A stretch of 34,669 nt of DNA from a bacterium (GCA_043820855.1 JBDRDK010000039.1:1-34669), one strand, 5' to 3'. Positions 6,405 to 29,113 are shown, counted from the stretch's first letter. Made by a program: numbers and translations. Notes: generated by a model from the letters alone, not told the origin.

Positions 6405-6408
6405 AGGG

Positions 6409-10262: not shown

Positions 10263-12902
10263 ATGGTCAAACTGCGGTTTCTTAAATTCTCAATAGTATT
10301 CGGTGGATTGATTCTGCTCTTTTTGATTTTTACTCCAATCAAGATCAAACCAGCTTTTGAATCTAATTTAAATAATCAATTAACGTCTGAATTTACTTCT
10401 GTATCAAGTGTCAATATTGAGGTTAACAAAGCCCAAGCTGATGATGTTCGCCTAAGAGACCGAATTGATCCAAATTCAAGTAATTACAATTCAAATCACT
10501 ATATTATAAATGTTTGGCGGACAATGCGAGGCTTAATAAACTCAGCTTTGGTTATTGTTTTGCTTCTTGCGGCTTTTGCAAATATACTGCATATCAATAT
10601 TGACACTTATACAATCAAAAAAGTTCTACCAGCAATGGTTCTCGGAGTAATTCTGGCAAACTTTAGCTTATTTATCTGCAGGATGTTTTTAGATGTAGCA
10701 GATGTAGTCAGCACCACTTTTTTGCAGGCAGATATTACTGATGCTGCTGGGTCGGCTGTGGAATTTGGCAATAAAATCGAAGTTATGCTCGGCTTTGATA
10801 AAATAAGCTTCGACGATCTCAAGAGTGGTGGAGCTATATTGACTATAATTGGCGGTACAGTTGCGGCAACGGGTTGGGCCACAATAGGAATCGGTCTTCT
10901 TTTTGGAATTTTAATTTTTATACTTGGTCCTGTACTTATCATTTTTTTACTCGCTATGCTTTTTTGGGCCAGGGGGGCGTTCCTGCAATTTCTTATTATG
11001 ATTTCTCCGCTGGCTTTCTTTCTTCTTGCTTTTCCATTTACCCAACAATTGTTCAAAAAATGGTGGTCAACATGGTTAAATTGGGTTTTTATGAAACCAG
11101 TTGTTTTTGCGTTGTTGTGGATGGGCAGTGAGATTGGTAAACAAACACAGAGTACGGGCGCTAATCTCCTCTCCTGGGTAATGGGCGTTACTCTCCTGGT
11201 TATGTCAGTTATGGTACCTTTTAAGCTCGGTGGAATAGTTGGTTCAGCATTGTCTGGTTTTGGCGATAAGGTAGGAAAATGGGGATTGGGATTAGCAGGT
11301 AGAAAAATCGCCACAACGGCTAAATCTGATTGGACAAAAACTGCTGAAAAGCAAGAAAAATTTGCACAACTAAGAGATGACTTTAAAGAATATCAAGACC
11401 TGAAAGCAAAAGAATCAGACCTGCAAGCAAAATATGACGATGATACAGCAACGGATGAAGAAGTTGATCAACTTGCAAAATTAGAAGAACTAGAAAAAGA
11501 CCCACCAAGACCGCCTGGACTAGGAGCACGCTGGGGTGCATTTGGTCCTGGGGCTGGAGGTCTTGCTACTACAGATTGGTTGCGTAGAACAAAACAAACA
11601 GAACAAGGGGTACAAGAAGCTTGGGAAAAAGCCCAGATGACTCGATCTTCCATAGAAGGAAACAAAGCATTAATTCGGGATGATGCTGCTGGAAAATTAG
11701 AAAGATTAAAAGATTTAGAAAAGAAAAAAGTAAAATTAGCAAAAACAGGCAACTCGCTGTCAACAAAAGAAGGAGTAGAACTAAATGATTTGAGAGCACA
11801 GAGACAAGAATTACTAAGTGCTAGTCCAAAAGCTCTTGACAAAATTCAAAAAAGAATTATTAAAAAAAGGATTGAGGTTAATGGATACGAAGAGGCAAAA
11901 TATGCAACTGCTGAATCTGCAATGGACTTTTTTGAAAAAAACAAAACCGCTGTAGCAAATTTTAAAGCAGGTAGGGGTTATAAAAATACCGCTCACCAGA
12001 ACTGGCAATTGGAAATATTTACCGAGGAAATGAGAACGGATCTGAATAAAGTGGGGTCATCAGGAGATTATCAAAACGGGGTAGCGAAAGCTCATGCCTA
12101 TGGAATCAAACATACCGGGGACTTAACAACAATGGGAATAACAAAAGAAGATTTAAAACCAGAAAATAGGCAGAGGTTTCTGGATAAGGCGATGCGTATG
12201 ACCCGATACAACAAACAAATTTTTGGTGCACAAGTTGCTAATTCTGCAAAAGCTTCTCATAGAATGTCAGACCGGCCCTTCAAGGGAGCATTGGAATTTG
12301 GAAAAGAGGAAATCGATATTTCGGGGCCTGGAGTAACAGTTCGTACGGATCCTAGTGGAAAAGTTAGAGTTGAAGGTTCTACTGAAGCTGTTTCTGAAAT
12401 GGCTCGAAAAGCAGAGGCAGGGGTAGAAACAGAGGGTCAAAAATTACAAGAAGAAATCACTGGAACTATGGAGGGTACAAGTATTGACGTTGATATAGAT
12501 ACAGAGTTATTTGGTAAAATAACTGTGAGCGCTAAAAATCCTCGAATAGATGATGAACAAGCTGTTGAAAACTTTATGAAAACAGTAAAAACAGAATTAG
12601 AAAGAACAGGCCGGACAATAAGTGGAGAGCAGGAAACAGATTTAAGGAGACTTGCAACAAAAAGAGTGCAAAGAGCTCGCGTGTACAAAAAACATCATGA
12701 AGCTGGTAGAGAGTCTGTTCACGAACAACAAACCCAACGCTTTGAAGCTGAAATAGCAAAGGAGCTCGAGATAACAGCAAGGGAACATCCGGATACAAGA
12801 CAACAAGCCACCAAAAGAGTTCTTGATGATGGGGACGATGAATGGGGGGAGATACTCGTTGAAGGTGATGACGAAGAAGACATAGATTTCTCATTAGACT
12901 AA
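10263..12902 (+). CDS. VirB6/TrbL-like polytopic membrane protein with a long charged C-terminal tail
   Basis: W..MR.L.N...V.LL..AFANI...IKKVLP......NFS; R...LQFL...SPLAF....FP......KWW; several TM helices; lies upstream of PrgI/VirB4. Confidence 0.78.
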   Translation: MVKLRFLKFSIVFGGLILLFLIFTPIKIKPAFESNLNNQLTSEFTSVSSVNIEVNKAQADDVRLRDRIDPNSSNYNSNHYIINVWRTMRGLINSALVIVLLLAAFANILHINIDTYTIKKVLPAMVLGVILANFSLFICRMFLDVADVVSTTFLQADITDAAGSAVEFGNKIEVMLGFDKISFDDLKSGGAILTIIGGTVAATGWATIGIGLLFGILIFILGPVLIIFLLAMLFWARGAFLQFLIMISPLAFFLLAFPFTQQLFKKWWSTWLNWVFMKPVVFALLWMGSEIGKQTQSTGANLLSWVMGVTLLVMSVMVPFKLGGIVGSALSGFGDKVGKWGLGLAGRKIATTAKSDWTKTAEKQEKFAQLRDDFKEYQDLKAKESDLQAKYDDDTATDEEVDQLAKLEELEKDPPRPPGLGARWGAFGPGAGGLATTDWLRRTKQTEQGVQEAWEKAQMTRSSIEGNKALIRDDAAGKLERLKDLEKKKVKLAKTGNSLSTKEGVELNDLRAQRQELLSASPKALDKIQKRIIKKRIEVNGYEEAKYATAESAMDFFEKNKTAVANFKAGRGYKNTAHQNWQLEIFTEEMRTDLNKVGSSGDYQNGVAKAHAYGIKHTGDLTTMGITKEDLKPENRQRFLDKAMRMTRYNKQIFGAQVANSAKASHRMSDRPFKGALEFGKEEIDISGPGVTVRTDPSGKVRVEGSTEAVSEMARKAEAGVETEGQKLQEEITGTMEGTSIDVDIDTELFGKITVSAKNPRIDDEQAVENFMKTVKTELERTGRTISGEQETDLRRLATKRVQRARVYKKHHEAGRESVHEQQTQRFEAEIAKELEITAREHPDTRQQATKRVLDDGDDEWGEILVEGDDEEDIDFSLD

Positions 12903-13739: not shown

Positions 13740-14303
13740 GTGCAATTTCAAGTACCACAAAATATCGATATGGAAGATAAAATAGTAGGTCCGCTAACTA
13801 TGAAAAATTTTTTGATATTATTATTTGGTGGCATGTTTGTATATGTAATTTTTTTACTGCCGTTACCTAGGGCTGTAAGTATTGTAATTGCTGTCCCGAT
13901 CATAATAGCATTATTACTTGTATCTTTTATTAAGATACAAGACCAGTCATTCCCAAAGTTTTTTACAAGTTTAGTGTATTTTTGGCTTCGTCCAAAAAAA
14001 AGAGTGTGGAGTCAAAAAGATATATTACCTGAAATAAAAATCAAAGATAAGCCCAAAAAAGAAGAGATACATATATCAAAACAAGTTAGTAGCCAAGCCA
14101 TACAAAAGCTCGCTGAAATCGTTGATACCAAAGGATGGAAACCTATCAGCAGTGAAAATTCCGAACAAGAACCATTAAACATATCTAATCGAGTTAAATC
14201 TAGTGAAGAAACCAACGTTCCTCAAGCAAAAATAGAAAACAAAAACATTGAAGATGTTTTTGATGACAAAAATTTAAAGGAGGGTAGTGAACAAGCGAGA
14301 TAA
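13740..14303 (+). CDS. PrgI-family (VirB3-like) protein
   Basis: QFQVPQNIDMEDKIVGPLTMK, two TM helices, RPKKRVW. Confidence 0.9.
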   Translation: MQFQVPQNIDMEDKIVGPLTMKNFLILLFGGMFVYVIFLLPLPRAVSIVIAVPIIIALLLVSFIKIQDQSFPKFFTSLVYFWLRPKKRVWSQKDILPEIKIKDKPKKEEIHISKQVSSQAIQKLAEIVDTKGWKPISSENSEQEPLNISNRVKSSEETNVPQAKIENKNIEDVFDDKNLKEGSEQAR

Positions 14304-15012
14304 AACTGACAAACCAAAGGCAACACCTAGTACGCAAGCCCATCTACCTATTGCAGAAATAGTTAATGGTACTGTTATTATGAAAGACGGTTCATTGCGC
14401 ATGGTGCTTATGGTTGCTGCAGTAAATTTTGACTTAAAGAGCGAGAAAGAACAGGATGCATTAATAATAGGATTTCAAAGGTTTTTGAATTCTTTGGAAT
14501 TCCCTATACAGATAGTTATGCAGTCTAGAAAAATTAACTTAAATCAATATATAAAGAGTTTGGAAAAAAGAAGAGATGAAGCTCGCAATGAACTTATTGT
14601 CGCTCAAATAGAAAATTACACCGCTTTTCTGATTAAATTATTATCAGTAGCAAATATAATGACGAAAAAGTTTTATCTAGTAGTAACTTATATACCTCCT
14701 GTGTTGAAAAAAGAATCGATTGTTGCTGAGTTTTTACAAGGAGTGGGCAGACAAGTTCCAAAAGTTGAGATCACAAACTTCAACGAGTACTACAAGGAGT
14801 TATCTCAAAGAACTCGACTGGTAGCCTCAGGGCTAAATCCGCTCGGCTTAAGAGCGATTCAACTAAACACCCAAGAATTAACTGAACTATATTACAACAC
14901 ATACAATCCAGATACCTCTATGCTTGAAGAATTGACAGATACAAAAAATATTACAACCCAACAATTATCAAAAATAAAATCAGATCAAAACAATGCCAAT
15001 AACAAACAATAA
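14287..15012 (+). CDS. TraC/VirB4 N-terminal-like T4SS protein (no P-loop)
   Basis: TQAHLPIAEI..G...MKDG, VNFDLKSEKEQ, FLNSLEFPIQI, ELYYNTYNP; SD AAGGAGG before GTG. Confidence 0.8.
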   Translation: MNKRDKTDKPKATPSTQAHLPIAEIVNGTVIMKDGSLRMVLMVAAVNFDLKSEKEQDALIIGFQRFLNSLEFPIQIVMQSRKINLNQYIKSLEKRRDEARNELIVAQIENYTAFLIKLLSVANIMTKKFYLVVTYIPPVLKKESIVAEFLQGVGRQVPKVEITNFNEYYKELSQRTRLVASGLNPLGLRAIQLNTQELTELYYNTYNPDTSMLEELTDTKNITTQQLSKIKSDQNNANNKQ

Positions 15013-16762
15013 AAAAATGTTGAGTCGTGAACAAGGAGAAACCACCATACTGGACATTATCGCTCCTTCTGATTTAGTAGTAAGCCCCAATTATCTACAG
15101 CTAAATAAATACTATGTGCGTACAATATTTGTGTACACATATCCAAGATATTTATATACGAATTGGCTGTCTTCAATAATTACTTATGATATCCCGCTTG
15201 ATGTGGGGATGTATATATATCCCGTAGAATCAAAAGCTGCAATGTATAATTTACGTACAAAAATCGGCCAACTAGAAGCAAGCCACAGAATCCAACAAGA
15301 AAAAGGACTGGTATCTGACCCAGAGCTTGAAACCGCTATCCAAGACGTAGAACAGCTCCGTTACACATTGCAAAAAGGTGAGCTTAAACTTTTCAGATTT
15401 AGTCTGTATTTCACCATATATGGGTCTAGCGTAGAAGAACTAGATACTGTCACAAAACAAATGGAATCTATACTAGGCGGTAAAATGATTTATAGTAAAG
15501 AAGCTTTATTGCAAATGGAACAAGGGTTTACTTCAACTGTACCTGTGTTTTTAGATGAATTAACAGTTACCCGCAATCTCGATACTGGTTCAATGTCTTC
15601 AGTCTTCCCATTTACTTCATCAGAGCTTACCAGTAATTCCGGGATATTGTATGGAATCAACAGACACAACAACAGCTTGGTACTGTTCGATAGGTTTAGC
15701 TTAGAAAATCCCAATATGGTTGTGTTTGCAAAGTCAGGTTCAGGAAAGTCCTACGCTGTAAAACTAGAGATACTTCGATATTTAATGTTTGATACTGATG
15801 TAATGGTTATAGATCCTGAAAATGAATACAAAGACTTATGTGAAGAAGTTGGGGGAAGTTTTATTAATCTAAGTATTAAATCTGATCACAAAATCAACCC
15901 CCTTGATCTGCCTCGTGTCACCAACAAAGATGAAGATCACGAGGGATTACTCCGAGAAAAAGTAATTCTTCTTCATGGCTTAATGCGATTAATGCTCGGG
16001 AGAATGACCCCAGAAGAAGATTCGATACTAGACAAGGCACTATTTGAAACTTATGCGCTCAAAGATATTACTCAAGACCCATCAACTTTTTCTAACCCTG
16101 CTCCGGTATTGGGTGATTTGCACAGTGTACTGGAAAATATGCGAGGCGCAGAAAAATTAGTATTAAGGTTATCGAAATTTACAGAGGGCACTTTTTCCGG
16201 ACTATTAAACAATCCGACTAATTTAAATTTTGATAAAGGTTTTATAGTTTTTTCTATCCGTGACCTCGAAGACGAACTTCGACCTATAGCTATGTATATG
16301 ATGTTGTCTCATATATGGGACAAGGTACGCTCTAATTTACGAAAACGTATACTAGTTATCGACGAGGCGTGGTGGATGATGCAATACGAAGATAGTGCGA
16401 AATTTCTGTACGGTATAGCAAAACGGAGCAGAAAATATTATCTTGGCTTAACAGTAATTAGCCAAGACGTGGAAGACTTTCTGACATCTCGCTATGGTCG
16501 GAGTGTGGTTGCGAACTCTAGCTTACAACTATTACTCAAACAAGCACCTTCAGCAATTGATAATGTAGCCGAAGTATTTCATCTTACAGAAGGAGAAAAA
16601 TTCTTATTACTCAATAGTGATATAGGCGAAGGATTGTTTTTCGCAGGTTTAAACCATGTAGCGATTAAAATCCTTGCATCACCCGAAGAACACATATTTA
16701 TCACTTCCAACCCTCAGGAGATATTAGAGATTCAGGAAGCGAAAAACATTACTAATAAATAA
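14993..16762 (+). CDS. virB4: VirB4-like type IV secretion ATPase
   Basis: Walker A AKSGSGKS, VIDPENEY, INPLD, Walker B LVIDEAW, KRSRKY, SQDVEDF, GEGLFF. Confidence 0.9.
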   Translation: MPITNNKKMLSREQGETTILDIIAPSDLVVSPNYLQLNKYYVRTIFVYTYPRYLYTNWLSSIITYDIPLDVGMYIYPVESKAAMYNLRTKIGQLEASHRIQQEKGLVSDPELETAIQDVEQLRYTLQKGELKLFRFSLYFTIYGSSVEELDTVTKQMESILGGKMIYSKEALLQMEQGFTSTVPVFLDELTVTRNLDTGSMSSVFPFTSSELTSNSGILYGINRHNNSLVLFDRFSLENPNMVVFAKSGSGKSYAVKLEILRYLMFDTDVMVIDPENEYKDLCEEVGGSFINLSIKSDHKINPLDLPRVTNKDEDHEGLLREKVILLHGLMRLMLGRMTPEEDSILDKALFETYALKDITQDPSTFSNPAPVLGDLHSVLENMRGAEKLVLRLSKFTEGTFSGLLNNPTNLNFDKGFIVFSIRDLEDELRPIAMYMMLSHIWDKVRSNLRKRILVIDEAWWMMQYEDSAKFLYGIAKRSRKYYLGLTVISQDVEDFLTSRYGRSVVANSSLQLLLKQAPSAIDNVAEVFHLTEGEKFLLLNSDIGEGLFFAGLNHVAIKILASPEEHIFITSNPQEILEIQEAKNITNK

Positions 16763-16771
16763 TTCGACTCT

Positions 16772-18433
16772 ATGTCAAACAATCAAGATCAAACATCTCA
16801 AAACCCTGACCTTCAACCTGATTCAAATATTGAAATTACTCATCAGTTCCCAGCTCAAAAAACTGAAAGAAAACAAGAGATAAAAGATATATTTGAAGAG
16901 GGACTTGCTTTCGAACCGCAAAATGTAAGTACTACTCCGGAACCCAAACAAGAACCCAAAACTTCCTCTTCTGTTAAAACACCAGTAACCCGATCACCTC
17001 GAGACATACCACAAGAACCGCCACAAATTGAAACAGACAACTTAAGAAAACCAGAAACTGTAGATACTGACGGCTTAGGATCATTACAATTAAAAGGGTT
17101 TAGTCAAAACCAGAATAAATCTACTCAAGAAACATCATTACCCGCACAACCACCCCATAAGAAATCAATACTTGGTTTAATTATTGGAACAATCATCGCC
17201 TTACTGGTTCTCGGCGGTGGGGGGTATACGTATTTTACTTTTTTCACCAAAAAAACCATTACTCTAAAACTAAACACTGAAGATGCTGTAGTAAAAATTG
17301 ACTCCAAAGATTACAGTTCCGAGATTCGCAACCAAGTATTAGAGATAAAACTGTCTGGTGATGTTCATAAGTTTGAAATAAGCAAAGATAATTATTTTAC
17401 TTATAAAAAAAGTATCGATTTATCCAAATTACAGAACAACAACTTAGAGGTTGATCTTCGTTCTTACCCGATTGCTCAACAATTAATGAAATATACTGCA
17501 GATTACCTGCGGGCTTATTTTGTTAGTGATTTGTTATATTATCGTAGCAATCAGGGCAAAACCTTATATTCTATCACGCTAAACAGCGACGGTAGTCAAG
17601 AGGACTTTCAAAGGTTATCGCCTGACATAATGGTTAGTATCAATAATTTAGTATGGAGCCCAAGATTTGACTCAACAATTATTCAAATTCCAGCTGACAA
17701 AACCAAAGGAACGGTATTTGCCGAAGGTGGCACTTCCGGTACAAAAACTTTTATTTATTTTGACTATAAAAATGTCCAATACATAGGAAGTAATATTCTA
17801 GACATTAAATATTCCCAAGATGGAAAATCCATTTATTATAATACAACCGGTGGCTTATTACTAAAATCTTTAATTGAAAACATATCTGAATCTCAACAAC
17901 TATTAAATACAAAAAAAGCTTTACTGGAAAACCCCAAAATAGTGATATCAAATACTGGCAATTATTTAGCTTTAATCCCTCAATCGACTAATTATGAGGA
18001 TAACCAAATATATCTATTTGATATTACCAGCAAAGAATTAACTGAATTAATTACTGATGGCAGCCAGTTTGATGCAAGGTTTTCTACAAATGACTCAAAT
18101 CTATTATTTGTCACATATTCAGAAAGTGGACCCGTGCTTAACGCAGTAAACATACAATCTAAAGACATTTTTGATTTAAACATCCAGACCTCTATAGAAA
18201 ATACGGTATGGTTAGATGATGAAAATATTTTATTTAGTAAGTATAATAAAAGCAGTAATAGTTATGAAGTAAACAAAAGAGGGATGGATTCTGATTCTAA
18301 CGCTAGTTATAGATTTGACTCTGCAAAAACTTTGGAGATAAAAAATATTTTATTTAATCCGGATAATAATATCCTGTATTTTTTAAATAATAGTTTAATT
18401 TATTATTTAAAGTTAGATGATGGAAGATATTAA
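16772..18433 (+). CDS. Single-pass membrane protein: disordered N-terminus, PEGA-like domain, TolB-like beta-propeller
   Basis: TM near aa 133-157; AVVKID..H.FEISKDNY; WSP, YSQDGKSIYY and FSTND blade motifs. Confidence 0.7.
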   Translation: MSNNQDQTSQNPDLQPDSNIEITHQFPAQKTERKQEIKDIFEEGLAFEPQNVSTTPEPKQEPKTSSSVKTPVTRSPRDIPQEPPQIETDNLRKPETVDTDGLGSLQLKGFSQNQNKSTQETSLPAQPPHKKSILGLIIGTIIALLVLGGGGYTYFTFFTKKTITLKLNTEDAVVKIDSKDYSSEIRNQVLEIKLSGDVHKFEISKDNYFTYKKSIDLSKLQNNNLEVDLRSYPIAQQLMKYTADYLRAYFVSDLLYYRSNQGKTLYSITLNSDGSQEDFQRLSPDIMVSINNLVWSPRFDSTIIQIPADKTKGTVFAEGGTSGTKTFIYFDYKNVQYIGSNILDIKYSQDGKSIYYNTTGGLLLKSLIENISESQQLLNTKKALLENPKIVISNTGNYLALIPQSTNYEDNQIYLFDITSKELTELITDGSQFDARFSTNDSNLLFVTYSESGPVLNAVNIQSKDIFDLNIQTSIENTVWLDDENILFSKYNKSSNSYEVNKRGMDSDSNASYRFDSAKTLEIKNILFNPDNNILYFLNNSLIYYLKLDDGRY

Positions 18434-18439
18434 AAAGGA

Positions 18440-18560
18440 GTGATTGGTAACTGGTGGTTAGTTACTGGTTATTGGTTACTAGACTAATAACTTCGTCCAA
18501 AGGACGATCAGCCTCTGGCTGAAATCATTAATAACCAATAACCGACAACTAATCATTAAT
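18440..18560. repeat. Inverted heptamer array carrying one REP-like double hairpin
   Basis: ttggtaa/ctggtgg/ttagtta/ctggtta/ttggtta ... tcgtccaaaggacga-tcagcctctggctga ... taaccaa/taaccga/caactaa. Confidence 0.85.
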
Positions 18561-18562
18561 TT

Positions 18563-20263
18563 ATGGCTTATCAAAAAGAGAAAAAACTTGGCGAAATAGA
18601 ACTTCCGATAAAAGAAACGGTTGAACGGAAAGTTGAAATAAAACCAGGAAAAGTCGAGATGGAGACCGAGAAAATACCTTTTGCCAAGGAACTTCCTACG
18701 TCCCCTACAATAACCTCTCCAACTGGGGGCAAAACCAAAGGGGGGCCAAAGAAAAAAGCTGGTATAACAGCAAGGGCCGAACCTAGTCCTACACCTCCAC
18801 AACCTAAACCTGGGGAACCGGCAGTATCTCCATCATCACCTCCACCGCCCCCACAACCTAAAGCTGGGGAACCGGCTGTATCTCCATTTGAAAAAAAACC
18901 TGTTCTCCCAGAGGAAGTAGCAGGAGAAAAACCAAAAGAAAGAGAAGAACCCAAAAAAGAACCCAAGAAAGAAGAACGTAAAGAGGAAACTCCTGAAAAA
19001 GAGGAATCTTCAGACGAAGGAGAAGCAGGAGAAAGGGGAAGAGAAGTAAAAAAGGAACAACCTGAGGAGCAAAAACCTAAAGAAGATGAAGAGGACAAAG
19101 AAGAAAAAAAAGACGGAGAAGAGGAACCAGAAAAGAAAGACGAAAAGGAAAAAGAGCCAGAGGAAGAACCAGGAGAAGAAAAAGGTGGGCCAAGAGAAGA
19201 AAAAGAAACCAAGCCCGGGGAAGAAGAACCAGTCGGTGGCAAAGTTAAAAAACCAAAAGCAGGAACATCAAAAGGAGTTGGAGCAGCTGAAGGGACAGCA
19301 GATAAGGGTGCGGCAGGCGCAGCCAGGGCAGGGGCAGCTGGCGGTGCTCGCACCGCAACCGGGGTTGGAGCTAAGCTAGGTACAGCCTTGGCAAGATTGG
19401 GCCCTTGGGGCTGGGCAGCGTTGGCAGTGATAATAGTAGTTGTAGTGATATTGATTTGTGCAGCAGTTGGCTGCAGTGATCGGTTTGGTTCCAGTCTGCA
19501 TCAGCCCGATGATGGCTCGGAAGGTAGATATACTCGAGCATATGCTGGAGATAATAATGCTCAAGCTGAAGTGATTGCAGTTGAAGGTTCTGAATTTAAA
19601 GACAGTATCAGCATCATATCCGACCAAGAAGGTAGCGATAATTTACAGCCATTATCTGATGAAACAGTTAATATTATTGATAGTTTGATGGGTCTGAACC
19701 CGGACCAAGAACAGTCCAGAGAGAATATGATAGAACAGGTCAGTCAAAACTATCAAAGTATTTTGGATCATCTGGGTATATATATAGTTGGACTTCCGGG
19801 CCATTTGGAAAATATTAATCAGAGGCAGATCGATAATATTACGGTCAATATAGCAGAAAGAAGAATATATTTACATTCTTCAGCTAACAAAGACAAAGAT
19901 CTAATCCTAGGTAGTGCCCCAGTATATTTTGCTTATGATGCACTCAATAATATTCAAGGCGCAACACTTCCTTCGGGTACAACCAAAATTAAAAAAATTC
20001 AGGACGCAGGCGAAGGCAATCATTTTATAGATAAAAACGGCTATGATTTCGGTAGATATTATATTGAATTAGATGGTAAACCGGAATTTATTATTGGCGC
20101 AAACACAAAAGATGAAGAACTGAACACAGACAACTACTCGCTATCTATGCTGCGAGCCACTTCTGGCCCGTTGAGAGTGTCTAGTTCTGACCTGGAGAAT
20201 TTAGCTAAATACTTATTAAAACACTCCAATCACAACATTAAAATAAGTTTTATCAATGAATAA
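18563..20263 (+). CDS. Membrane protein: Pro/Glu/Lys-rich N-terminus, Gly/Ala-rich region, TM, degenerate YkuD-like C-terminal domain
   Basis: PPQPK.GEPAVSP x2; TM WGWAALAVIIVVVVILIC; C-terminal ITVNIAERRIYL...PV...LPSG...FGRYYIEL...TSGPLRV..DL. Confidence 0.7.
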   Translation: MAYQKEKKLGEIELPIKETVERKVEIKPGKVEMETEKIPFAKELPTSPTITSPTGGKTKGGPKKKAGITARAEPSPTPPQPKPGEPAVSPSSPPPPPQPKAGEPAVSPFEKKPVLPEEVAGEKPKEREEPKKEPKKEERKEETPEKEESSDEGEAGERGREVKKEQPEEQKPKEDEEDKEEKKDGEEEPEKKDEKEKEPEEEPGEEKGGPREEKETKPGEEEPVGGKVKKPKAGTSKGVGAAEGTADKGAAGAARAGAAGGARTATGVGAKLGTALARLGPWGWAALAVIIVVVVILICAAVGCSDRFGSSLHQPDDGSEGRYTRAYAGDNNAQAEVIAVEGSEFKDSISIISDQEGSDNLQPLSDETVNIIDSLMGLNPDQEQSRENMIEQVSQNYQSILDHLGIYIVGLPGHLENINQRQIDNITVNIAERRIYLHSSANKDKDLILGSAPVYFAYDALNNIQGATLPSGTTKIKKIQDAGEGNHFIDKNGYDFGRYYIELDGKPEFIIGANTKDEELNTDNYSLSMLRATSGPLRVSSSDLENLAKYLLKHSNHNIKISFINE

Positions 20264-23200
20264 ATCTATTAAGTCCACATGTATTCTGAGTATGAGCTTG
20301 TTGATTGCTCTTTTGCCTGTATTTATTCCTTTTTCACAACGAGCTCAAGTTCAAGCTCAAAATAGAGTTGAAACTGTTGATGCAGCTCCCAAAGGCATAG
20401 ACTTAAACAACCGACTAGTTTCGGCTATAGCAGAAGCTCATAAAAACCAAGTTCAGTTTCTGATGTTGAATATGGCTGGACAAAAGCCGCTATTAAAGAT
20501 AAACCGAAAAGATCTTGAGCGTATAAAAAATAAAAAAATCGATAGGCGCATCCTAAAAACTCTTAACTATTTGGTAACCCCTAGAGAATTTGGTGGAGCT
20601 GGTTATAATTACTTAAAAATTCGAAGAATAATGAAGGGTTATGACACACCAATATCTAACCGCAAAATCTCCCGAGAGTATCCCAAAGATACTGATCCAA
20701 ATATATCAGTTCATAGCTCGGGGCAGGCAGTGGACATCGAAGAGATTGACTATATTTACTCCACCTTGAAAGAAAGCTCTTTGATAAAAACCAAGAAAAA
20801 ACCTCAAGCCCCGATGCCTATCAAAGTAGCTTGGCAGAGCAATGAAGGATTTGATCAGTCTGGTGGAATGGAAACTTATAACCAAAGCATGCAAGGACTA
20901 TTTAATGAATACGGTACTGATATATTAAATCAATCTTTAACACTAGAGCTAGCAGATTTATACGGCACAGAGCTAGATTTAAATAATTTATCTTTAACAG
21001 ATTTTGAAAGTTTAGCCAAAGCTACTGCGCTAGAATGGTTTTTAGCAATGGCAGATATGCCTGGACTTGACCTGTCTGGCTTGAATCTTTCTAGCCTATC
21101 TTGGGGCGAATTAGTGCGTGAAGTTTCACGAGGTTATCTTGGGGACGTATTAGGGATAGACTCTGAAGGATTAAGAGGTAATGGGTTTAGTGAAATAAAA
21201 CAAAATGTTGGTAGAGCAGAAACTGAAGATCGACTTGGTGTACCAAGTGGATCACTTGAAACAAAAAATGGCAAATCTGATGAAATGCTTAGACATATGG
21301 CTACTCGCAGACTTGAAGATGATTTGGAATTCGCTAGAGATTCATTGAAAAACATTGCTTCGGAAACAGCTGTCCAGAAAAAATTTAAAGATGCTGTTAC
21401 TCTGTATCACGCAAGTCGGGTAGATAGTGCACTAGGAATGCCGCCAAGCTCAACGCCAAATTATTACACAAATATTTTACAATCAGGTAGTAAATCCCAA
21501 ATATCAGATGCTTTATTCAATATCGGAGCATATTACGCTAGTCAAATTTTAGTAAATAACCTGTCAGAGCAAAGTCTAGTTTATCGCTGGATAACTAGCA
21601 AGGGAAGTGTGTCATCACAAATTGATTTTAATTTAGCTGGTAACAAATTAGAAATAGACGAAACTAGATTAGCTGGAAATGTTAGCTTGAAATCTGGCGA
21701 CATTGAAAATCTATTTATTAAAGATGGTGCCAACGCTGTATTCAATCGACTGGGGGAATCAACTCTTTTAGACGGTCTAGGAAGTGCAGCTTTGGAAAAC
21801 TTCGACTCTTTAGCAAATGTTTATGCTGATTTTAACTTTTACAGCAATACTGCAAAAGATATTCAAGATCAACTTGAAAGTTTGAAAAGTCAGAGCGGGT
21901 TCTCGGATATCGCTAATACACTTGCTGGAATTGTTAGCGGCTTAACTGTTATTAGTGGATCAGAAGATAACTATGATACAGAACGCGACATAAGGTCTAT
22001 GTCAGAAGCTGCCCGAGAATTAAGTCAGTTTGAAATCCAAGAAGGAGGTACGCCTTCTGAAAGCATCCAAGAATTAGAAAATAACATAAACTCCTTTGTT
22101 GAAGGAATAAACTTACCTTTCTTGCCCGGTCTTTCAATGGACGATCTTGATATCCCTGATTTAAATATTTACGGCACTAATATTTCGAGCTTGGGCCTCC
22201 TGGACGCAATAGCTAGTGAAAATCCAGAAACTAGTTTACAAAATATTGGTATAGAAATATTAGAAAACAATTGGGAGTTTAGTTGGGCTTTACCATCCGG
22301 AACTATGAAAAAATTATTCAATGGTGAAAATGTTTCAGGCGAAGTTGAAACTACGCTAGGTAACATTGCTTCAGATTATGTTCAAGATGAGTTTGGTATC
22401 GATTTTTCTGGTGAAGATCTTGTAAATATATTTCATGGAGATTTTGATAGTTTGATTGACGTGGGTGGGGCAATGATAGATGGGGCATTAAATTTGCCTA
22501 TTGGTAGCACTGCAAAATCAATTCACGACGGTGGAGACCCTGAACAAATTTTTGAAAACACTGGCTCATTACTCATAAGCCAGTTCTTGGGACTGGACTT
22601 TCCAGTAAGCCTGGAGGGCAATATCTCTCAAAATATTGGCGCTGGGATAATTGAAACTAGACTAGGATTTGAATTAAATTCACTAGAAAATTATTCAAAT
22701 ATTAATGACATGATCTCGGAGTTAGGAGTTGATAGGGTTGCAACGATCTTCCACTTAGATTTAAATGGCGCAAATACAATTACAGATACCGTTATTGAAA
22801 GCTCATCCGACGGTATACAATATATCGGCTCTTATCTTAAAATAAACCAAGATAGCGTTAAGCACTTTCTAGAAGGTGGTACGACTCAAGATTTATCTAA
22901 CGATGTCGGAGAATCTTCTGCGCTTCAAATAACAGCCGACAAACTCATAAACCACCTGGGCCTTGATCCAAGCATCAAAGACATTATACAAGAAGATGTG
23001 ATTGACAAACTAATAACCAAGGAAGGTTGGAACACTAAAGATGTTGTAGGATCTGCTTTAATTCTTTTGGCAGGGGAAAAACTAGAAGAAGTAACCGGAT
23101 TACGAGCTGAAGAATTAAAGGATATATATGAATCTTCTGAAAATTTTAACGAAACAATAACAGAAGCTGGAATGAGAATTGTAGTTCAAATGTTTTCTGA

Positions 23201-24815
23201 TTACTCAGGGTTTCCAGAAGAAGACTTTGATAATATTGTCCGTGAGTTCTATGAAACCAACACGGTTACCACTGAAAGCTTACGCAACTTAACGTCTAAG
23301 GTTGGTTTTAGATTATTAAAAGAAGCTTGCCAAGCTCAAGGAGTAGACTGCGCAACAGATGCAAATTTATTTGCCCAAAGTGTAGCTATCAACGGTATTA
23401 CTCAGGGAAATGTAAAAGAGTTTTTAAACGGCGCGTCTGTAGCTGCAATAGAAACCCTTTATAACACCGAATTTAAGGATGAGGTTGGCATTGATTTTCA
23501 ATACATCCACGACGCGGTTACAGCTAACCCAGAACTGGTAAATTCATGGATGACTAACAACAATGTCAACCCGGAAAGCGCTACCGAAGAACAGATTCGT
23601 ACTGCTGAACGCGAATCGCGCAATAAAGCCCAACGAATATTGCAATACAATATAATGGACGCTCAATTACATCGAATAGACCCGGGTATTCCACAAGGAT
23701 TTGCAGAAGTAATGCTGGAAGGAGACGAAGATAGTCGTCGATTTGTATTTGGGACTTATATTTTCGATAAAATCGAAGACGAGGTTGGCATACCTTCCGA
23801 ACTATCTAGAATATATACTACATTGCGAAGTGACTTTATATATGGCGTGGACATAACCAAAGAAAAATATTGGGATGACGTTGAAGCCGCGGCAACAGAC
23901 ATGCTTGACTCTGTGCTACGTGATAAAACTGGTATTAACTTTTCAGACGGAACAATAGATACGTTATTCAAGGGTAATGTTGGCGATGCCCTGGAATTGA
24001 ATATGAGCGTGATATCTGATTTTGTTGACGGCTATATTGGACTACCTCGAGGAACAACTCAATTGATTTATAAATCTTATCAAGTTTACGCTGAATCCCT
24101 AAAAACCTATCAAAACGTATTGGCTGGGGGTGACGCAGAAGCAATCGCTCAAGCCAAAACTGCTTATAATGCTCAAGTAGCTGCTATTGTAGTTACCTTA
24201 GTAAACTTTGCATTTGGAAAACAGTTTGCAAAATTAGATCAACAATTTGGACTACCAGCAGGTACCACCTCGTCTATTATTGGGCTGGGGATTACTTGGT
24301 TAATTACTGGAGCAATACCTATAATAGGAGTTATTGGCTTAGCTTATAATGTGTTGTTTGGGGTATATAAAGTTAAGATGTTTTCTACCCCGTGTAATTA
24401 CCAGCCTGCTGTGGAAAATCCCCCAGCTTGGATGAAAATGCGTAACCCAGATCATCCTGATGAATTAGGTATATTACCTTCTGCGTTCCCATACTGCCCA
24501 GGCGAGTGGTCGTATAAACCAAAGTTCTCGAGTGAGACATTCAAGGATACTGCAATACAATCCGCACAATACAAGGTTGCTATGCTAATAGGTGATCTGT
24601 TGTATATGAATGATAACTTGGAAGCTCTGAATGATAAAATTGCTGGGGAGAACGGGAATATGCAACCTATCCAGATCCTTACCTTGCGAGAAGAAGATCG
24701 AAATCGATATCTGTATAAGGTAATTACAGAATACGGCAAAACAGCTGGAGCTAGAGGACGAACAGGAGTAATTATCTCTGAAAAAGTTTGGGACGTAGTA
24801 CACATTGGTTACTAG
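20256..24815 (+). CDS. Giant exported protein with split M15/DD-peptidase-like Zn motifs and a repetitive helical core
   Basis: Signal peptide; SVHSSGQAVD (aa 151-160); C-terminal QPIQILT...WDVVHIGY; recurring LG(L/M/V)PxG(S/T). Confidence 0.7.
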   Translation: MNKSIKSTCILSMSLLIALLPVFIPFSQRAQVQAQNRVETVDAAPKGIDLNNRLVSAIAEAHKNQVQFLMLNMAGQKPLLKINRKDLERIKNKKIDRRILKTLNYLVTPREFGGAGYNYLKIRRIMKGYDTPISNRKISREYPKDTDPNISVHSSGQAVDIEEIDYIYSTLKESSLIKTKKKPQAPMPIKVAWQSNEGFDQSGGMETYNQSMQGLFNEYGTDILNQSLTLELADLYGTELDLNNLSLTDFESLAKATALEWFLAMADMPGLDLSGLNLSSLSWGELVREVSRGYLGDVLGIDSEGLRGNGFSEIKQNVGRAETEDRLGVPSGSLETKNGKSDEMLRHMATRRLEDDLEFARDSLKNIASETAVQKKFKDAVTLYHASRVDSALGMPPSSTPNYYTNILQSGSKSQISDALFNIGAYYASQILVNNLSEQSLVYRWITSKGSVSSQIDFNLAGNKLEIDETRLAGNVSLKSGDIENLFIKDGANAVFNRLGESTLLDGLGSAALENFDSLANVYADFNFYSNTAKDIQDQLESLKSQSGFSDIANTLAGIVSGLTVISGSEDNYDTERDIRSMSEAARELSQFEIQEGGTPSESIQELENNINSFVEGINLPFLPGLSMDDLDIPDLNIYGTNISSLGLLDAIASENPETSLQNIGIEILENNWEFSWALPSGTMKKLFNGENVSGEVETTLGNIASDYVQDEFGIDFSGEDLVNIFHGDFDSLIDVGGAMIDGALNLPIGSTAKSIHDGGDPEQIFENTGSLLISQFLGLDFPVSLEGNISQNIGAGIIETRLGFELNSLENYSNINDMISELGVDRVATIFHLDLNGANTITDTVIESSSDGIQYIGSYLKINQDSVKHFLEGGTTQDLSNDVGESSALQITADKLINHLGLDPSIKDIIQEDVIDKLITKEGWNTKDVVGSALILLAGEKLEEVTGLRAEELKDIYESSENFNETITEAGMRIVVQMFSDYSGFPEEDFDNIVREFYETNTVTTESLRNLTSKVGFRLLKEACQAQGVDCATDANLFAQSVAINGITQGNVKEFLNGASVAAIETLYNTEFKDEVGIDFQYIHDAVTANPELVNSWMTNNNVNPESATEEQIRTAERESRNKAQRILQYNIMDAQLHRIDPGIPQGFAEVMLEGDEDSRRFVFGTYIFDKIEDEVGIPSELSRIYTTLRSDFIYGVDITKEKYWDDVEAAATDMLDSVLRDKTGINFSDGTIDTLFKGNVGDALELNMSVISDFVDGYIGLPRGTTQLIYKSYQVYAESLKTYQNVLAGGDAEAIAQAKTAYNAQVAAIVVTLVNFAFGKQFAKLDQQFGLPAGTTSSIIGLGITWLITGAIPIIGVIGLAYNVLFGVYKVKMFSTPCNYQPAVENPPAWMKMRNPDHPDELGILPSAFPYCPGEWSYKPKFSSETFKDTAIQSAQYKVAMLIGDLLYMNDNLEALNDKIAGENGNMQPIQILTLREEDRNRYLYKVITEYGKTAGARGRTGVIISEKVWDVVHIGY

Positions 24816-24863: not shown

Positions 24864-25151
24864 TTATATTGCTCTAATTTTAACAGCTCTAATTCTGTTT
24901 TGACCTATTCTTTGGTCTAATATCTTTTGAATATCTGGTAATATCATCCCAATGTCCAAAGTCAAAGCATGGGAACAATAAATATATAAAATACCCCTGT
25001 TAAATTTATATTTAATGTCCTCTGTGTCCTGATCAACCAGAGAGTTAACTACAAGCTTGGCCTGATAGCACACTAAAGCAGCTTGAGCTGGCTTTTTTAC
25101 AAAAGAGGTGGTTTTTTTATTTTCAATTATGCGATTAATGTTTGTAAACAT
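24864..25151 (-). CDS. DciA/DUF721-family protein
   Basis: Follows recF with TAATG coupling; F.RGILYIYC...L...I..I.IR pattern. Confidence 0.65.
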   Translation of the reverse strand: MFTNINRIIENKKTTSFVKKPAQAALVCYQAKLVVNSLVDQDTEDIKYKFNRGILYIYCSHALTLDIGMILPDIQKILDQRIGQNRIRAVKIRAI

Positions 25152-26245: not shown

Positions 26246-26260
26246 GATGGATCCATTATT

Positions 26261-27373: not shown

Positions 27374-27383
27374 AAAACTCCCT

Positions 27384-29010: not shown

Positions 29011-29054
29011 AGCTATAATCCTGTCTTGCGTTGTTTTAAAGAGTATAATTAAGG

Positions 29055-29113
29055 TTATCCACAACGTAAGACTATAATATCAATTTTATCCACAGCTATC
29101 AATTTTATCCACA
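29055..29113. promoter_or_regulatory. Three perfect DnaA boxes upstream of dnaA
   Basis: TTATCCACA at 29055, 29086 and 29105; the latter two sit in a 17-bp duplication, tatcaattttatccaca. Confidence 0.9.

What the first reader, a model, noticed from the sequence alone, without database searches (positions are those of the whole stretch)
20256..24815. 1519-aa protein that appears to be an M15 Zn-peptidase domain split by a >1,200-aa insertion
Seen: aa ~95-165 read IDRRILKTL..L...I.RI.KGY...SVHSSGQAVDI (H153, D160). The last ~80 aa read V..LI.DLL.M...MQPIQILT...WDVVHIGY-stop (H1516). Established: M15/Hedgehog-DD-peptidase (LAS) enzymes bind Zn via SxHxxGxAxD plus a later His (HxH or ExxH), normally only tens of residues downstream and often near the domain end. 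Inference: the two termini fold into one peptidoglycan peptidase and the huge helical region loops out of it as a stalk. This would be an unusual cell-wall-opening or needle-like component of the CPR T4SS, or a Hedgehog-like non-catalytic adhesin (D1513xxH instead of ExxH).
Basis: partly seen in the sequence, partly recalled or inferred. Interest (0 to 1): 0.82.

Follow-up and report, generated by a model that had tools for sequence, protein, structure and literature searches.

The report
Giant T4SS protein, split zinc-peptidase domain
The last gene of a type IV secretion cluster in an ultrasmall (Patescibacteria) bacterium encodes a 1519-residue envelope protein whose two ends appear to fold together into one zinc-peptidase-like module, separated by a helical insert of more than 1000 residues.

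Summary
ORF 20256-24815 (+) encodes 1519 aa with S151-x-H153-x-x-G-Q-A-x-D160 near the N-terminus and D1513-x-x-H1516 three residues from the end.

- Conservation: among 125 cluster representatives carrying both end modules, H153/D160/H1516 are all present in 111. The modules are always 1015-2456 aa apart.
- Co-folding: a two-chain prediction of the N-module (aa 66-236) and C-module (aa 1370-1519) scored 0.77, against 0.00 for the best control. D160 against H1516 was among the most confident contacts.
- Co-occurrence: the C-module never occurs without the N-module in 201 genomes.
- A Cys pair (positions 169 and 1377) is present or absent together in 92 of 92 aligned members.

Not established:
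- Homology to M15/LAS rests on the motif only. Pfam gives no hit, and hhalign gives 9-19% probability.
- The fold could not be searched, because no single-chain model of both halves was possible.
- The acid three residues before H1516 is kept in only 56 of 125.
- Membrane topology parity is open.

The gene is a syntenic core component of the Patescibacteria T4SS (22 of 22 informative loci). Verdict: a new variant of a known kind. Catalysis is unproven.

The parts
20256..24815 (+). Whole gene: 1519-aa giant envelope protein (P0001), the last gene of the T4SS cluster
   Evidence: synteny
20265..20339 (+). N-terminal hydrophobic segment (aa 4-28), read as a Sec signal peptide or membrane anchor
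   Evidence: Hydropathy scan. 112 of 125 family members have exactly one such segment before the N-module. The signal-peptide reading is an inference.
20451..20963 (+). N-module (aa 66-236), the N-terminal half of the composite domain. Near-invariant residues: D96, R98, G113, G114, G116, S151, H153, G156, Q157, A158, D160, W193, Q194.
   Evidence: Alignment A2; column counts; chain 1 of the complex prediction
20706..20735 (+). S151-V-H153-S-S-G-Q-A-V-D160: the LAS/M15-type signature carrying two proposed Zn ligands
   Evidence: hhalign aligns exactly this stretch to the S-x-H-x-x-G-x-A-x-D of VanY domains
20964..24155 (+). Insert (aa 237-1300): acidic, predicted all-alpha, with no known family or fold. 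Its length varies from 1015 to 2456 aa across the family.
24159..24221 (+). Hydrophobic segment 1 (aa 1302-1322), a candidate transmembrane helix
   Evidence: helix aa 1294-1319 in the AF2 model
24273..24374 (+). Hydrophobic segment 2 (aa 1340-1373, 34 aa): one kinked transmembrane helix or a hairpin. It follows the conserved loop motif G-L-P-A-G-T.
   Evidence: two short helices, aa 1337-1351 and 1356-1368, at low pLDDT
24363..24812 (+). C-module (aa 1370-1519), the C-terminal half of the composite domain. Near-invariant residues: P1471, Q1473, T1476, R1478, G1504, H1516.
   Evidence: Alignment A3; column counts; chain 3 of the complex prediction
24792..24812 (+). D1513-V-V-H1516-I-G-Y: the terminal strand with the proposed third Zn ligand. 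It is predicted to pair with the A158-V-D160-I strand.
   Evidence: Least-error contacts: chain 1 residues 93-96 with chain 3 residues 146-148
10263..12902 (+). Context: VirB6/TrbL-like membrane protein
   Evidence: weak, E 0.0071; conserved upstream in 6 loci
13740..14303 (+). Context: PrgI (VirB3-like) protein
   Evidence: PF12666, E 1.1e-09
14287..16762 (+). Context: VirB4 ATPase encoded as two overlapping ORFs (14287-15012, N-terminal part; 14993-16762, P-loop part)
16772..20263 (+). Context: two unknown ORFs (553 aa and 566 aa) between virB4 and the giant gene
   Evidence: the 553-aa ORF is conserved in 6 loci

Best explanation
P0001 is the conserved terminal component of the Gram-positive-type (MPF-FATA-like) type IV secretion cluster of Patescibacteria.

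Proposed architecture:
- It enters the envelope through an N-terminal signal peptide or anchor.
- Residues ~80-235 and ~1420-1519 then fold together into one globular domain next to the membrane.
- That domain is built around H153, D160 (both from the S-x-H-x-x-G-Q-A-x-D loop and strand) and H1516 (from the last strand). This is the His-Asp-His zinc triad of LAS/M15-type cell-wall peptidases.
- The ~1100 residues between the halves (1015-2456 in relatives) form an acidic all-alpha mass that projects as a closed loop.
- A two-segment hydrophobic anchor (aa 1302-1373) brings the chain back to the same side.

Most likely function: a zinc-dependent peptidoglycan peptidase, or at least a peptidoglycan-stem-peptide-binding module. 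It would play the VirB1-like wall-opening role beside the T4SS channel, while the insert is the exposed, fast-evolving part.

Shown: the ORF, the motifs, their family-wide conservation, the strict co-occurrence of the two halves, the synteny, and the predicted co-folding.

Inferred: zinc binding, homology to M15, topology, catalysis and the substrate.
For: (1) Motifs are present and non-random.

(2) Family. A profile search with the N-module found 268 cluster representatives at E<=0.001, 192 of them at E<=1e-10.
- Of the 155 proteins held, 125 carry both modules. They are 1299-3106 aa long, with the modules 1015-2456 aa apart.
- The remaining 30 are mostly truncated fragments, plus 6 divergent full-length proteins.

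(3) Conservation.
- H153 in 147 of 156 rows, D160 in 151 of 156, A158 in 149 of 156, Q194 in 151 of 156.
- H1516 in 118 of 125 rows (2 Tyr, 5 gaps).
- The complete H-D-H triad is present in 111 of 125.

(4) Co-folding. The prediction used the N-module alignment, Zn and the C-module alignment.
- Median ipSAE was 0.77 (runs 0.77, 0.76, 0.83). The best of 3 controls scored 0.00.
- In the tool's calibration, 58 of 80 solved complexes and 2 of 110 mismatched pairs reached the mark.
- The runs share at least 78% of contacts, and the partner's pLDDT is at least 66.
- The least-error contacts are chain 1 residues 95-96 (D160, I161) with chain 3 residues 146-147 (V1515, H1516).

(5) Co-occurrence. In 201 sampled Patescibacteria genomes the N-module is found in 18 and the C-module in 15.
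- All 15 are among the 18.
- In 13 the two matches lie in an open frame of the same length.
- In 2 they lie on separate contigs of fragmented assemblies.
- No genome has the C-module alone.

(6) Covariation. Cys at N-module position 169 and Cys at C-module position 1377 are both present in 79 and both absent in 13 of the 92 members aligned at both positions. There are no mixed cases, and P0001 has Ser at both. Both positions lie in the predicted interface.

(7) Likeness to M15.
- hhalign aligns the motif stretch to the VanY zinc motif (22 columns, E 0.0037; greedy alignment of 100 columns, E 0.0012).
- VanY is the family hit by most members in a per-member Pfam scan, although only by 2 of 30 and below threshold.
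- The nearest named language-model clusters are M15, M15_3, Hedgehog and M15_4, at scores 0.83-0.87. These are leads only.

(8) An acidic residue sits at position 1513 or 1481 in 117 of 125 members: 61 at 1481 only, 31 at 1513 only, 25 at both.

(9) T4SS link.
- virB4 lies upstream on the same strand in 22 of 30 loci. These are all 22 loci that have at least 3 kb of upstream flank.
- No SLT, phage-lysozyme, M23, CHAP or VanY match lies on the window's contig.
Against: - No Pfam, NCBIfam or PDB sequence match supports M15 for P0001 or for the module profiles.
- hhalign probabilities are low (8.9% and 19%). The C-module shows nothing against VanY.
- The N-module folded alone is only moderately confident (pLDDT 71; 55-59 over the motif region). 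It has no Foldseek match in PDB or BFVD.
- The composite fold was never compared with a solved LAS enzyme.
- The acid three residues before the last His, which is the catalytic base in VanX/VanY-type enzymes, is D or E in only 56 of 125 members.
- The position that hhalign and the eye align with the Arg of S-G-Y-R-S is D, T, N or S, not Arg. That Arg is invariant in the 16 VanY domains of alignment A4.
- Hydropathy cannot fix the number of membrane spans. A crude estimate gives 2 in 49 members, 3 in 53 and 1 in 18. An odd number would put the C-module in the cytoplasm, away from the N-module.
- The complex prediction used my own alignments and a riding zinc ion, unlike its calibration. Halves of one fold can also pass from the model's memory of solved folds.
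- The Cys covariation rests on about 3 independent changes, and the sign test is not significant.
Confidence: 0.6

Rival explanations
1. The composite His-Asp-His module is real and LAS-derived but no longer hydrolyses anything. The zinc site, often with a disulfide, acts as a clasp that closes the giant loop. Alternatively it is a peptidoglycan-binding anchor that fixes the T4SS-associated surface protein in the wall, comparable to the non-proteolytic zinc site of the Hedgehog N-terminal domain.
For: - The acid at -3 from the last His is present in only 56 of 125 members, whereas the metal triad is kept in 111 of 125.
- The canonical Arg position is not Arg.
- Related genomes carry separate, conventional lysozyme+M15 and SLT+M15 proteins close to the giant gene. 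Those could do the cutting.
- The own genome has SLT, M23 and CHAP enzymes elsewhere.
- Hedgehog-type clusters appear among the language-model neighbours (lead only).
Against: - An acid is kept at position 1513 or 1481 in 117 of 125 members, which looks like a maintained catalytic residue that moved.
- R1478 (101 of 125), Q1473 (115 of 125) and Q194 (151 of 156) are conserved beyond what a metal clasp needs.
- No recognisable wall hydrolase lies in this window's T4SS cluster.
Confidence: 0.25
2. The two termini do form one domain, but it is a fold of its own. The S-x-H-x-x-G-x-A-x-D resemblance to M15 is convergent or fortuitous, and the function (metal-dependent or not) is unrelated to peptidoglycan.
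For: - All sequence and profile comparisons with M15 are below significance.
- No small protein of 86-300 aa matches the N-module profile, so no unsplit intermediates were found.
- No fold match was found for the N-module alone.
- The C-module is far larger than the last hairpin of an M15 domain.
Against: - The ten-residue signature is exact and is expected 0.0004 times per protein.
- It is the only stretch hhalign picks, and it is aligned in register with the VanY zinc motif.
- A His at the extreme C-terminus on a strand predicted to pair with the Asp strand is what the LAS site requires.
- Several independent M15-type clusters are the nearest named neighbours.
Confidence: 0.12
3. The termini never meet. 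The hydrophobic region spans the membrane an odd number of times, so the C-module is cytoplasmic (for example, contacting VirB4) and the N-module is outside. The predicted interface would then be an artefact.
For: - Hydropathy allows 1 or 3 spans in 71 of 125 members by a crude count.
- AF2 splits the 34-aa segment into two short helices.
- Structure predictors can dock chains that do not bind (caveats).
Against: - The score is 0.77 against 0.00 in 3 controls, with the conserved ligands in direct contact.
- The Cys169/Cys1377 pattern (79 both, 13 neither, 0 mixed) fits an inter-module disulfide, which needs both on the same, oxidising side.
- Most C-modules contain Cys: 104 of 125 have at least one in the last 150 aa.
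- The two modules co-occur strictly.
Confidence: 0.08

Closest known systems
VanY / MEROPS M15 (LAS) zinc D,D-carboxypeptidases and related M15 cell-wall peptidases (Pfam PF02557, PF13539, PF08291)
   Same: - Exact S-x-H-x-x-G-x-A-x-D signature.
- A later His on a terminal strand, ending H-x-x-[YF]. Compare E-P-W-H-Y-R-Y in the 16 Patescibacteria VanY domains aligned here.
- The hhalign match is in register at the zinc motif.
- Extracytoplasmic setting.
   Different: - The domain is not contiguous: 1015-2456 aa and a membrane anchor lie between the second and third ligands.
- No significant profile match.
- The Arg of S-G-Y-R-S is absent at the aligned position.
- The acid before the last His is kept in only 56 of 125.
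- The C-terminal half has its own conserved P-x-Q-[IV]-x-T-x-R block.
VirB1-like peptidoglycan hydrolases of Gram-positive T4SSs (PrgK of pCF10, TraG of pIP501, CD419/TrsG types)
   Same: - Encoded inside a monoderm-type T4SS cluster, membrane-anchored and facing the wall.
- From recall, PrgK also carries a LAS-superfamily (LytM) domain. The papers on it were seen only as entries in the reference list of PMC12102498.
   Different: - No SLT, lysozyme, CHAP or NlpC/P60 domain.
- Three to ten times larger.
- The enzyme-like domain is split.
- Quinonero-Coronel et al. 2025 (PMC12102498, passages read) report that VirB1 homologues are mostly not associated with virB4 in Patescibacteria. In the passages I read, they do not mention this protein.
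Conventional lysozyme+M15 and SLT+M15 proteins next to the giant gene in other Patescibacteria (L045, 439 aa; L050, 623 aa)
   Same: Same T4SS neighbourhood. They have a membrane anchor and M15-type S-x-H...D...C-x-H motifs.
   Different: - Their M15 domains are contiguous and are detected by Pfam VanY.
- They have no counterpart in this window (no BLAST hit to any of 13 window proteins).
- They are probably the 'peptidase and lysozyme homologues downstream of virB4' that PMC12102498 cites from Wang et al. 2023. I could not check this, because Table S2 is a closed supplement.
Hedgehog N-terminal signalling domain (LAS fold with a zinc site of debated catalytic role)
   Same: - His-Asp-His zinc site in an extracellular, non-classical setting.
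- Hedgehog/M15_3 clusters are among the language-model neighbours (score 0.83, lead only).
   Different: Eukaryotic, contiguous and small. No sequence match was found here. The comparison is from recall.

Membership tests
LAS / MEROPS M15 zinc peptidases | First two zinc ligands in H-x(6)-D, within S-x-H-x-x-G-x-A-x-D | tested here: met
   S151-V-H-S-S-G-Q-A-V-D160. H153 is kept in 147 of 156 rows, D160 in 151 of 156, A158 in 149 of 156 and G156 in 140 of 156. 10 of 20000 shuffles contain the pattern.
LAS / MEROPS M15 zinc peptidases | Third zinc ligand: a downstream His on a beta-strand next to the Asp strand | tested here: met
   H1516 is kept in 118 of 125 rows. It is predicted to contact D160 with 0.3 A expected error. 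This is a prediction, not a structure.
LAS / MEROPS M15 zinc peptidases | Catalytic acid three residues before the last His ([DE]-x-x-H), or H-x-H | tested here: inconclusive
   P0001 has D1513. Family-wide, D or E occurs in 56 of 125. An acid at position 1513 or 1481 occurs in 117 of 125. No H-x-H was found.
LAS / MEROPS M15 zinc peptidases | Conserved Arg of the S-G-Y-R-S strand (invariant R32 in the 16 VanY domains) | tested here: not met
   The aligned K-G-Y-D130-T has D, T, N, S or E at this position across the family. R1478 in the C-module (101 of 125) might substitute, but that is an inference.
LAS / MEROPS M15 zinc peptidases | Significant match to a family profile | tested here: not met
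   No M15 family for P0001 at E<=1. Per-member scan: VanY 2 of 30 (best E 0.07), M15_4 1 of 30. hhalign probabilities 8.9% and 19%. PDB profile searches found nothing relevant.
LAS / MEROPS M15 zinc peptidases | One contiguous domain of roughly 100-200 residues | tested here: not met
   The gap between the modules is 1015-2456 aa in 125 of 125 members. No protein of 86-300 aa matches the N-module profile.
LAS / MEROPS M15 zinc peptidases | LAS fold (central antiparallel sheet with the triad at one edge) | not testable with these tools
   The protein exceeds the 1200-aa folding limit. A fusion of the termini is a joined sequence and was not built. The complex prediction returns no searchable model.
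LAS / MEROPS M15 zinc peptidases | Zinc binding and peptide-bond hydrolysis in peptidoglycan | not testable with these tools
   This needs biochemistry.
Patescibacteria MPF-FATA-like T4SS gene cluster | Encoded in one transcriptional direction with virB4, prgI (virB3-like) and a virB6-like gene | tested here: met
   Window. Relatives: virB4 is upstream in 22 of 30 loci, which are all 22 with at least 3 kb of upstream flank. prgI and the VirB4 N-terminal ORF are present in 20 of them, the other 2 being cut within virB4 by the locus end.
Patescibacteria MPF-FATA-like T4SS gene cluster | Origin-proximal chromosomal position (stated in the abstract of PMC12102498) | tested here: met
   recF, dnaN and dnaA lie directly downstream on the other strand. 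recF is downstream in 18 of 30 loci and dnaN in 17 of 30.
VirB1-like T4SS peptidoglycan hydrolases | SLT/lysozyme and/or CHAP/NlpC-P60 catalytic domain | tested here: not met
   No such Pfam or NCBIfam match in P0001, nor in three large relatives.

The most novel reading that the evidence does not exclude
The protein is a contact-gated split enzyme. The 1000-2450-aa helical loop would be the host-facing part of the epibiont's T4SS. Because the loop's two ends are the two halves of one zinc peptidase site, held in most relatives by an inter-half disulfide, pulling on or rearranging the loop at host contact would open or close the active site. That would couple host attachment to local cell-wall cleavage and channel assembly. 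It would be a mechanically or allosterically switched peptidoglycan hydrolase of a kind not described for any secretion system.
Probability: 0.08. Interest if true: 0.85.

Novelty: new variant of a known kind. Interest (0 to 1): 0.62.

Why it matters
The T4SS cluster is reported as essential for epibiotic growth of the one genetically tractable Saccharibacterium, and its function is unknown. It has no relaxase or coupling protein (Wang et al. 2023, PMC10633639, passages read; PMC12857230, passages read).

This gene is a syntenic member of that cluster wherever the family occurs. It is by far the largest gene in the cluster, and no family name attaches to it.

Recognising that its two ends form one LAS-like zinc site does three things:
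- It gives the protein its first testable handle: three point mutations, a zinc measurement and a muropeptide assay.
- It supplies a candidate for the missing VirB1 function in clusters, like this one, that lack a recognisable hydrolase.
- It offers an extreme example of domain discontinuity. The insert is five to twelve times longer than the domain and contains the membrane anchor. This is a case that domain-based annotation pipelines systematically miss.

Tried and rejected
- Pfam, NCBIfam and PDB sequence searches of the whole protein gave nothing usable. The only hits were FliD_C at E 0.018 and FeoB at E 0.11, both rejected as noise.
- The N-module folded alone (pLDDT 71) gave no match in Foldseek PDB or BFVD.
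- AF2 of aa 320-1519 gave pLDDT 66.5 and pTM 0.38. Foldseek returned only non-significant alpha-solenoid rows such as exportin, so 'stalk' or any known fold for the insert is not claimed.
- Internal repeats: a BLAST self-comparison found none. A G-[LIVMF]-[PDN]-x-[GSNED]-[STA] motif occurs 5 times against 0.46 expected (maximum 4 in 500 shuffles), which is too weak to build on.
- Pfam on three large relatives found no domain in the inserts.
- An M15_3 alignment for profile comparison was not possible. Only 2 of 151 genomes had a match.
- A language-model search with the C-module gave no usable hit.
- A search for small stand-alone relatives of the N-module (86-300 aa) found none.
- The two ORFs between virB4 and the giant gene were checked for a hydrolase and none was found.
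- A tree-based test of the Cys covariation found only 1 supported independent pair (3 in all), which is not significant.
- Literature: no paper holds 'Patescibacteria' + 'T4SS' + 'M15'. Searches, and passages of PMC12102498, PMC10633639, PMC12857230 and PMC7427843, did not mention this protein. Supplementary tables (Table S2 of Wang 2023; Table S3 of Quinonero-Coronel 2025) are closed and may annotate its orthologue.

Full report
**Observation**

The window holds an ATG-initiated ORF at 20256..24815 (+) of 1519 codons.
- I95-D-R-R-I-L-K-T-L.
- S151-V-H153-S-S-G-Q-A-V-D160-I.
- At the very end, M-Q-P-I-Q-I-L-T ... W-D1513-V-V-H1516-I-G-Y-stop.

The ten-residue pattern S.H..G.A.D occurs once. 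It is expected 0.0004 times from composition and appeared in 10 of 20000 shuffles. The protein has 13 His in all. The start codon overlaps the preceding ORF by 8 nt.

**Context**

Upstream on the same strand lie:
- a weak VirB6/TrbL-like protein (10263-12902);
- a PrgI family (VirB3-like) protein (13740-14303);
- a VirB4 ATPase encoded as two overlapping ORFs, 14287-15012 and 14993-16762. The first matches the N-terminal part of VirB4/TrsD models and the second the TraG P-loop domain;
- two ORFs of unknown family, 553 aa and 566 aa.

Downstream on the other strand lie recF-like, dnaN and dnaA genes. This is the origin-proximal, Gram-positive-type T4SS cluster described for Patescibacteria (PMC12102498, abstract and passages). 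That cluster is reported as essential for epibiotic growth in Southlakia epibionticum (PMC10633639, passages; PMC12857230, passages).

No SLT, phage-lysozyme, M23, CHAP or VanY match lies on the window's contig. SLT, M23 and CHAP genes exist on other contigs of the genome, which is 94% complete.

**The family**

A word-indexed search found one 47%-identical protein and five at about 30% identity over 17-18% of the query. In their alignment, S151, H153, G156, Q157, D160, D1513 and H1516 are invariant.

A scan of one genome per species returned 30 loci, all from Patescibacteria: records titled Saccharibacteria, Berkelbacteria or Patescibacteria group.
- All 30 ORFs have S.H..GQ[AG].D.
- The 24 ORFs with an intact 3' end are 1399-3173 aa long. 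All 24 end in H-x-x-[FY], some with a GGxx tail.

A profile of the N-module (A2, 30 rows) searched against 1.84 billion representatives found 268 proteins at E<=0.001 and 192 at E<=1e-10. The best 150 were returned.

Of the 155 proteins then held, 125 match both an N-module and a C-module HMM.
- They are 1299-3106 aa long (median 2370).
- The modules are 1015-2456 aa apart (median 1825).
- The other 30 are mostly short fragments, plus 6 divergent full-length proteins whose ends look similar but escaped the HMM.

No protein of 86-300 aa matched the N-module profile. I found no unsplit version.

**Conservation**

| Module | Residue counts |
|---|---|
| N-module (156 rows) | D96 152, R98 147, G114 153, S151 138, H153 147, A158 149, D160 151, W193 129, Q194 151 |
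| C-module (125 rows) | P1471 114, Q1473 115, T1476 113, R1478 101, G1504 119, H1516 118 (2 Tyr, 5 gaps) |

The full H-D-H triad is present in 111 of 125.

Against a simple M15 reading:
- D1513 is D or E in only 56 of 125.
- The residue aligned with the Arg of the VanY S-G-Y-R-S strand is D, T, N, S or E.

However, an acid is present at position 1513 or at 1481 (in the P-x-Q-I-x-T-x-R-x-x-D block) in 117 of 125: 61 at 1481 only, 31 at 1513 only, 25 at both. This may mean the general base sits at either position. The pattern follows subfamilies, so it is suggestive only.

**Do the ends fold together?**

The protein is too long for the folding tool, and a fusion of the termini is a joined sequence that I may not build. 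I therefore submitted the two unaltered stretches as separate chains with their alignments and a zinc ion.

Results:
- Median ipSAE 0.77 (runs 0.77, 0.76, 0.83), against 0.00 for the best of three controls.
- In the tool's calibration, 58 of 80 solved complexes and 2 of 110 mismatched pairs reached this mark.
- The runs agree in at least 78% of contacts, and the partner's pLDDT is at least 66.
- The most confident contacts are chain 1 residues 93-96 (A158-I161) with chain 3 residues 146-148 (V1515-I1517). That is the Asp strand pairing with the terminal His strand, with D160 against H1516 at 0.3 A expected error.
- The interface is large, with 212-242 contacts. It also involves the conserved P-I-K-V-A-W-Q block and the C-module helix around aa 1436-1448.

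Caveats stated by the tool apply:
- My own alignments and a riding ligand differ from the calibration.
- Halves of a known fold can pass from memory, which would show likeness rather than binding.

Consistent with an incomplete half-domain, the N-module folded alone is confident only in its first 60 residues and poor (pLDDT 55-59) across the zinc motif.

**Independent support for the co-fold**

1. In 201 sampled Patescibacteria genomes the N-module occurs in 18 and the C-module in 15.
   - All 15 are among the 18.
   - 13 are in an open frame of identical length.
   - 2 are on separate contigs of fragmented assemblies.
   - No genome has the C-module alone.
2. Cys at N-module position 169 and Cys at C-module position 1377 covary perfectly.
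   - Of the 92 members aligned at both positions, 79 have both, 13 have neither and none has only one.
   - P0001 has Ser at both.
   - Both positions fall within the predicted interface (chain 1 residues 99-111; chain 3 residues 1-10).
   - An inter-half disulfide would also place both halves on the oxidising side of the membrane.
   - The pattern reflects only about three changes on a tree, and the sign test is not significant.

**Is it M15/LAS?**

The evidence is at motif level.
- hhalign of the N-module profile against 16 Patescibacteria VanY domains (A4) picks exactly the zinc motif, in register: 22 columns, E 0.0037, probability 8.9%.
- A greedy alignment extends to 100 columns, covering the first helix, the G-Y strand and the zinc motif, at E 0.0012 and probability 19%.
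- The C-module shows nothing.
- In a per-member Pfam scan, VanY is the family hit by most members, but only by 2 of 30 and below threshold.
- The nearest named language-model clusters are 'Peptidase M15 domain-containing', M15_3, Hedgehog/M15_3 and M15_4, at 0.83-0.87. Scores under 0.9 are leads only.
- Profile searches of PDB sequences found nothing.

I therefore describe the module as LAS/M15-like and do not file it as a member. Four features fail: a significant profile match, contiguity, the canonical Arg, and a conserved acid at -3 (that last one only partly).

**The insert and the anchor**

AF2 of aa 320-1519 with 33 rows gave pLDDT 66.5 and pTM 0.38.
- It predicts about 55 helices and essentially no strands until the C-module.
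- The C-module strands fall at aa 1473-1476, 1504-1507 and 1516-1518.
- Two blocks, roughly aa 330-450 and 720-980, are confident (pLDDT 80-94).

Foldseek found no match at E<=0.001. The insert is acidic, has no internal BLAST repeats and has no Pfam domain, including in relatives twice the size. 'All-alpha loop' is supported. 'Stalk' or 'needle' is not.

Two hydrophobic segments precede the C-module: aa 1302-1322 (21 aa) and aa 1340-1373 (34 aa). They are separated by a conserved G-L-P-A-G-T loop.
- If the second segment is a single kinked helix, there are two spans and the C-module returns to the outside.
- If it is a hairpin, there are three spans and the model fails.
- A crude family-wide count gives 2 spans in 49 members, 3 in 53 and 1 in 18, so hydropathy does not settle it.
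- The co-fold prediction and the Cys pair favour the even number.

**Distribution and neighbours**

The family is single-copy and lineage-restricted. It was found in all 10 sampled genomes of the window's own class, in 6 of 6 of another family (f20) and in 2 others, for 18 of 201 in total.

virB4 lies upstream on the same strand in 22 of 30 loci. These are all 22 loci with at least 3 kb of upstream flank; the other 8 have less than 1.7 kb.

In f20 genomes, conventional membrane-anchored lysozyme+M15 (439 aa) and SLT+M15 (623 aa) proteins lie a few kb from the giant gene. These may be the 'peptidase and lysozyme homologues downstream of virB4' that PMC12102498 cites from Wang et al. 2023. If so, the giant protein itself is not what that sentence refers to. 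I could not check this, because the table is a closed supplement. This window has no counterpart of those proteins.

**Mechanism proposed**

1. Sec-dependent export of the N-terminus (inferred).
2. The N-module and C-module associate on the outer face of the membrane and bind zinc through H153, D160 and H1516. The contact is predicted; the metal is inferred.
3. The composite site binds, and probably cleaves, peptidoglycan stem peptides next to the T4SS channel. This would supply the VirB1-like function that this cluster otherwise lacks (inferred).
4. The variable helical loop is exposed and evolves fast (length variation is shown; exposure is inferred).

I put 0.6 on the composite LAS-like zinc module in a T4SS core component. 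Within that, the odds are roughly even between active hydrolase and non-catalytic clasp or anchor.

**Novelty**

In the searches made and the passages read, I found no description of this protein or of a split LAS domain in a T4SS. Supplements were not visible. It is a new variant of a known kind: a familiar zinc site in an extreme discontinuous architecture, in a secretion system of unknown function that matters for the epibiotic lifestyle.

Noticed in passing
window 14287-15012 and 14993-16762 (+): VirB4 is encoded as two overlapping ORFs. The 241-aa ORF matches the N-terminal part of VirB4/TrsD models (NF045975 positions 94-234, E 3.9e-11), and the 589-aa ORF carries the P-loop domain. Both pieces are conserved side by side in 20 related loci, so this looks like a family-wide split rather than a frameshift.
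   Followed up: partly
P0001 residues 169 and 1377 (window 20760-20762 and 24384-24386): In relatives, Cys at these two positions is present or absent together: 79 have both, 13 have neither and 0 are mixed, out of 92. This window's protein has Ser at both. This suggests an inter-module disulfide in most of the family.
   Followed up: yes
P0001 residues 1481 and 1513 (window 24696-24698 and 24792-24794): An acidic residue is kept at one or both of these C-module positions in 117 of 125 relatives: 61 at 1481 only, 31 at 1513 only and 25 at both. The catalytic base may have moved between them.
   Followed up: partly
L045 (G044:C1, 439-aa ORF) and L050 (G069:C2, 623-aa ORF): In another Patescibacteria family, conventional membrane-anchored lysozyme+M15 and SLT+M15 proteins lie within a few kb of the giant gene. 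This window's cluster has no counterpart.
   Followed up: partly
window 25151-29064 (-): recF-like, dnaN and dnaA lie directly downstream of the T4SS cluster, so the cluster is origin-proximal. The same recF/dnaN arrangement is seen in 18 and 17 of 30 related loci.
   Followed up: yes
window 16772-18433 (+): A 553-aa ORF after virB4 has a weak beta-propeller-like signal (TolB model, E 0.00043, aa 347-471). It is conserved in 6 related loci. Its function is unknown.
   Followed up: partly
window 6400-6777 (+): A 125-aa ORF matches the '23S rRNA-intervening sequence protein' family (PF05635, E 1.8e-38). It lies between a class I tRNA synthetase gene and a TPR protein gene.
   Followed up: no
window 1880-2806 (-) and 385-1704 (-): A FemAB-family peptidyltransferase and a Mur ligase sit at the window's start. 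This points to an interpeptide-bridged peptidoglycan, which is relevant to what a stem-peptide peptidase could cut.
   Followed up: no
P0001 aa 1330-1337 and relatives: The short loop between the two hydrophobic segments carries a conserved G-L-P-A-G-T / A-P-P-G-F-T-N motif, with P1334 and G1336 invariant in A1. G-[LIV]-P-x-G-[ST]-like motifs recur 5 times in the protein, against 0.46 expected.
   Followed up: partly
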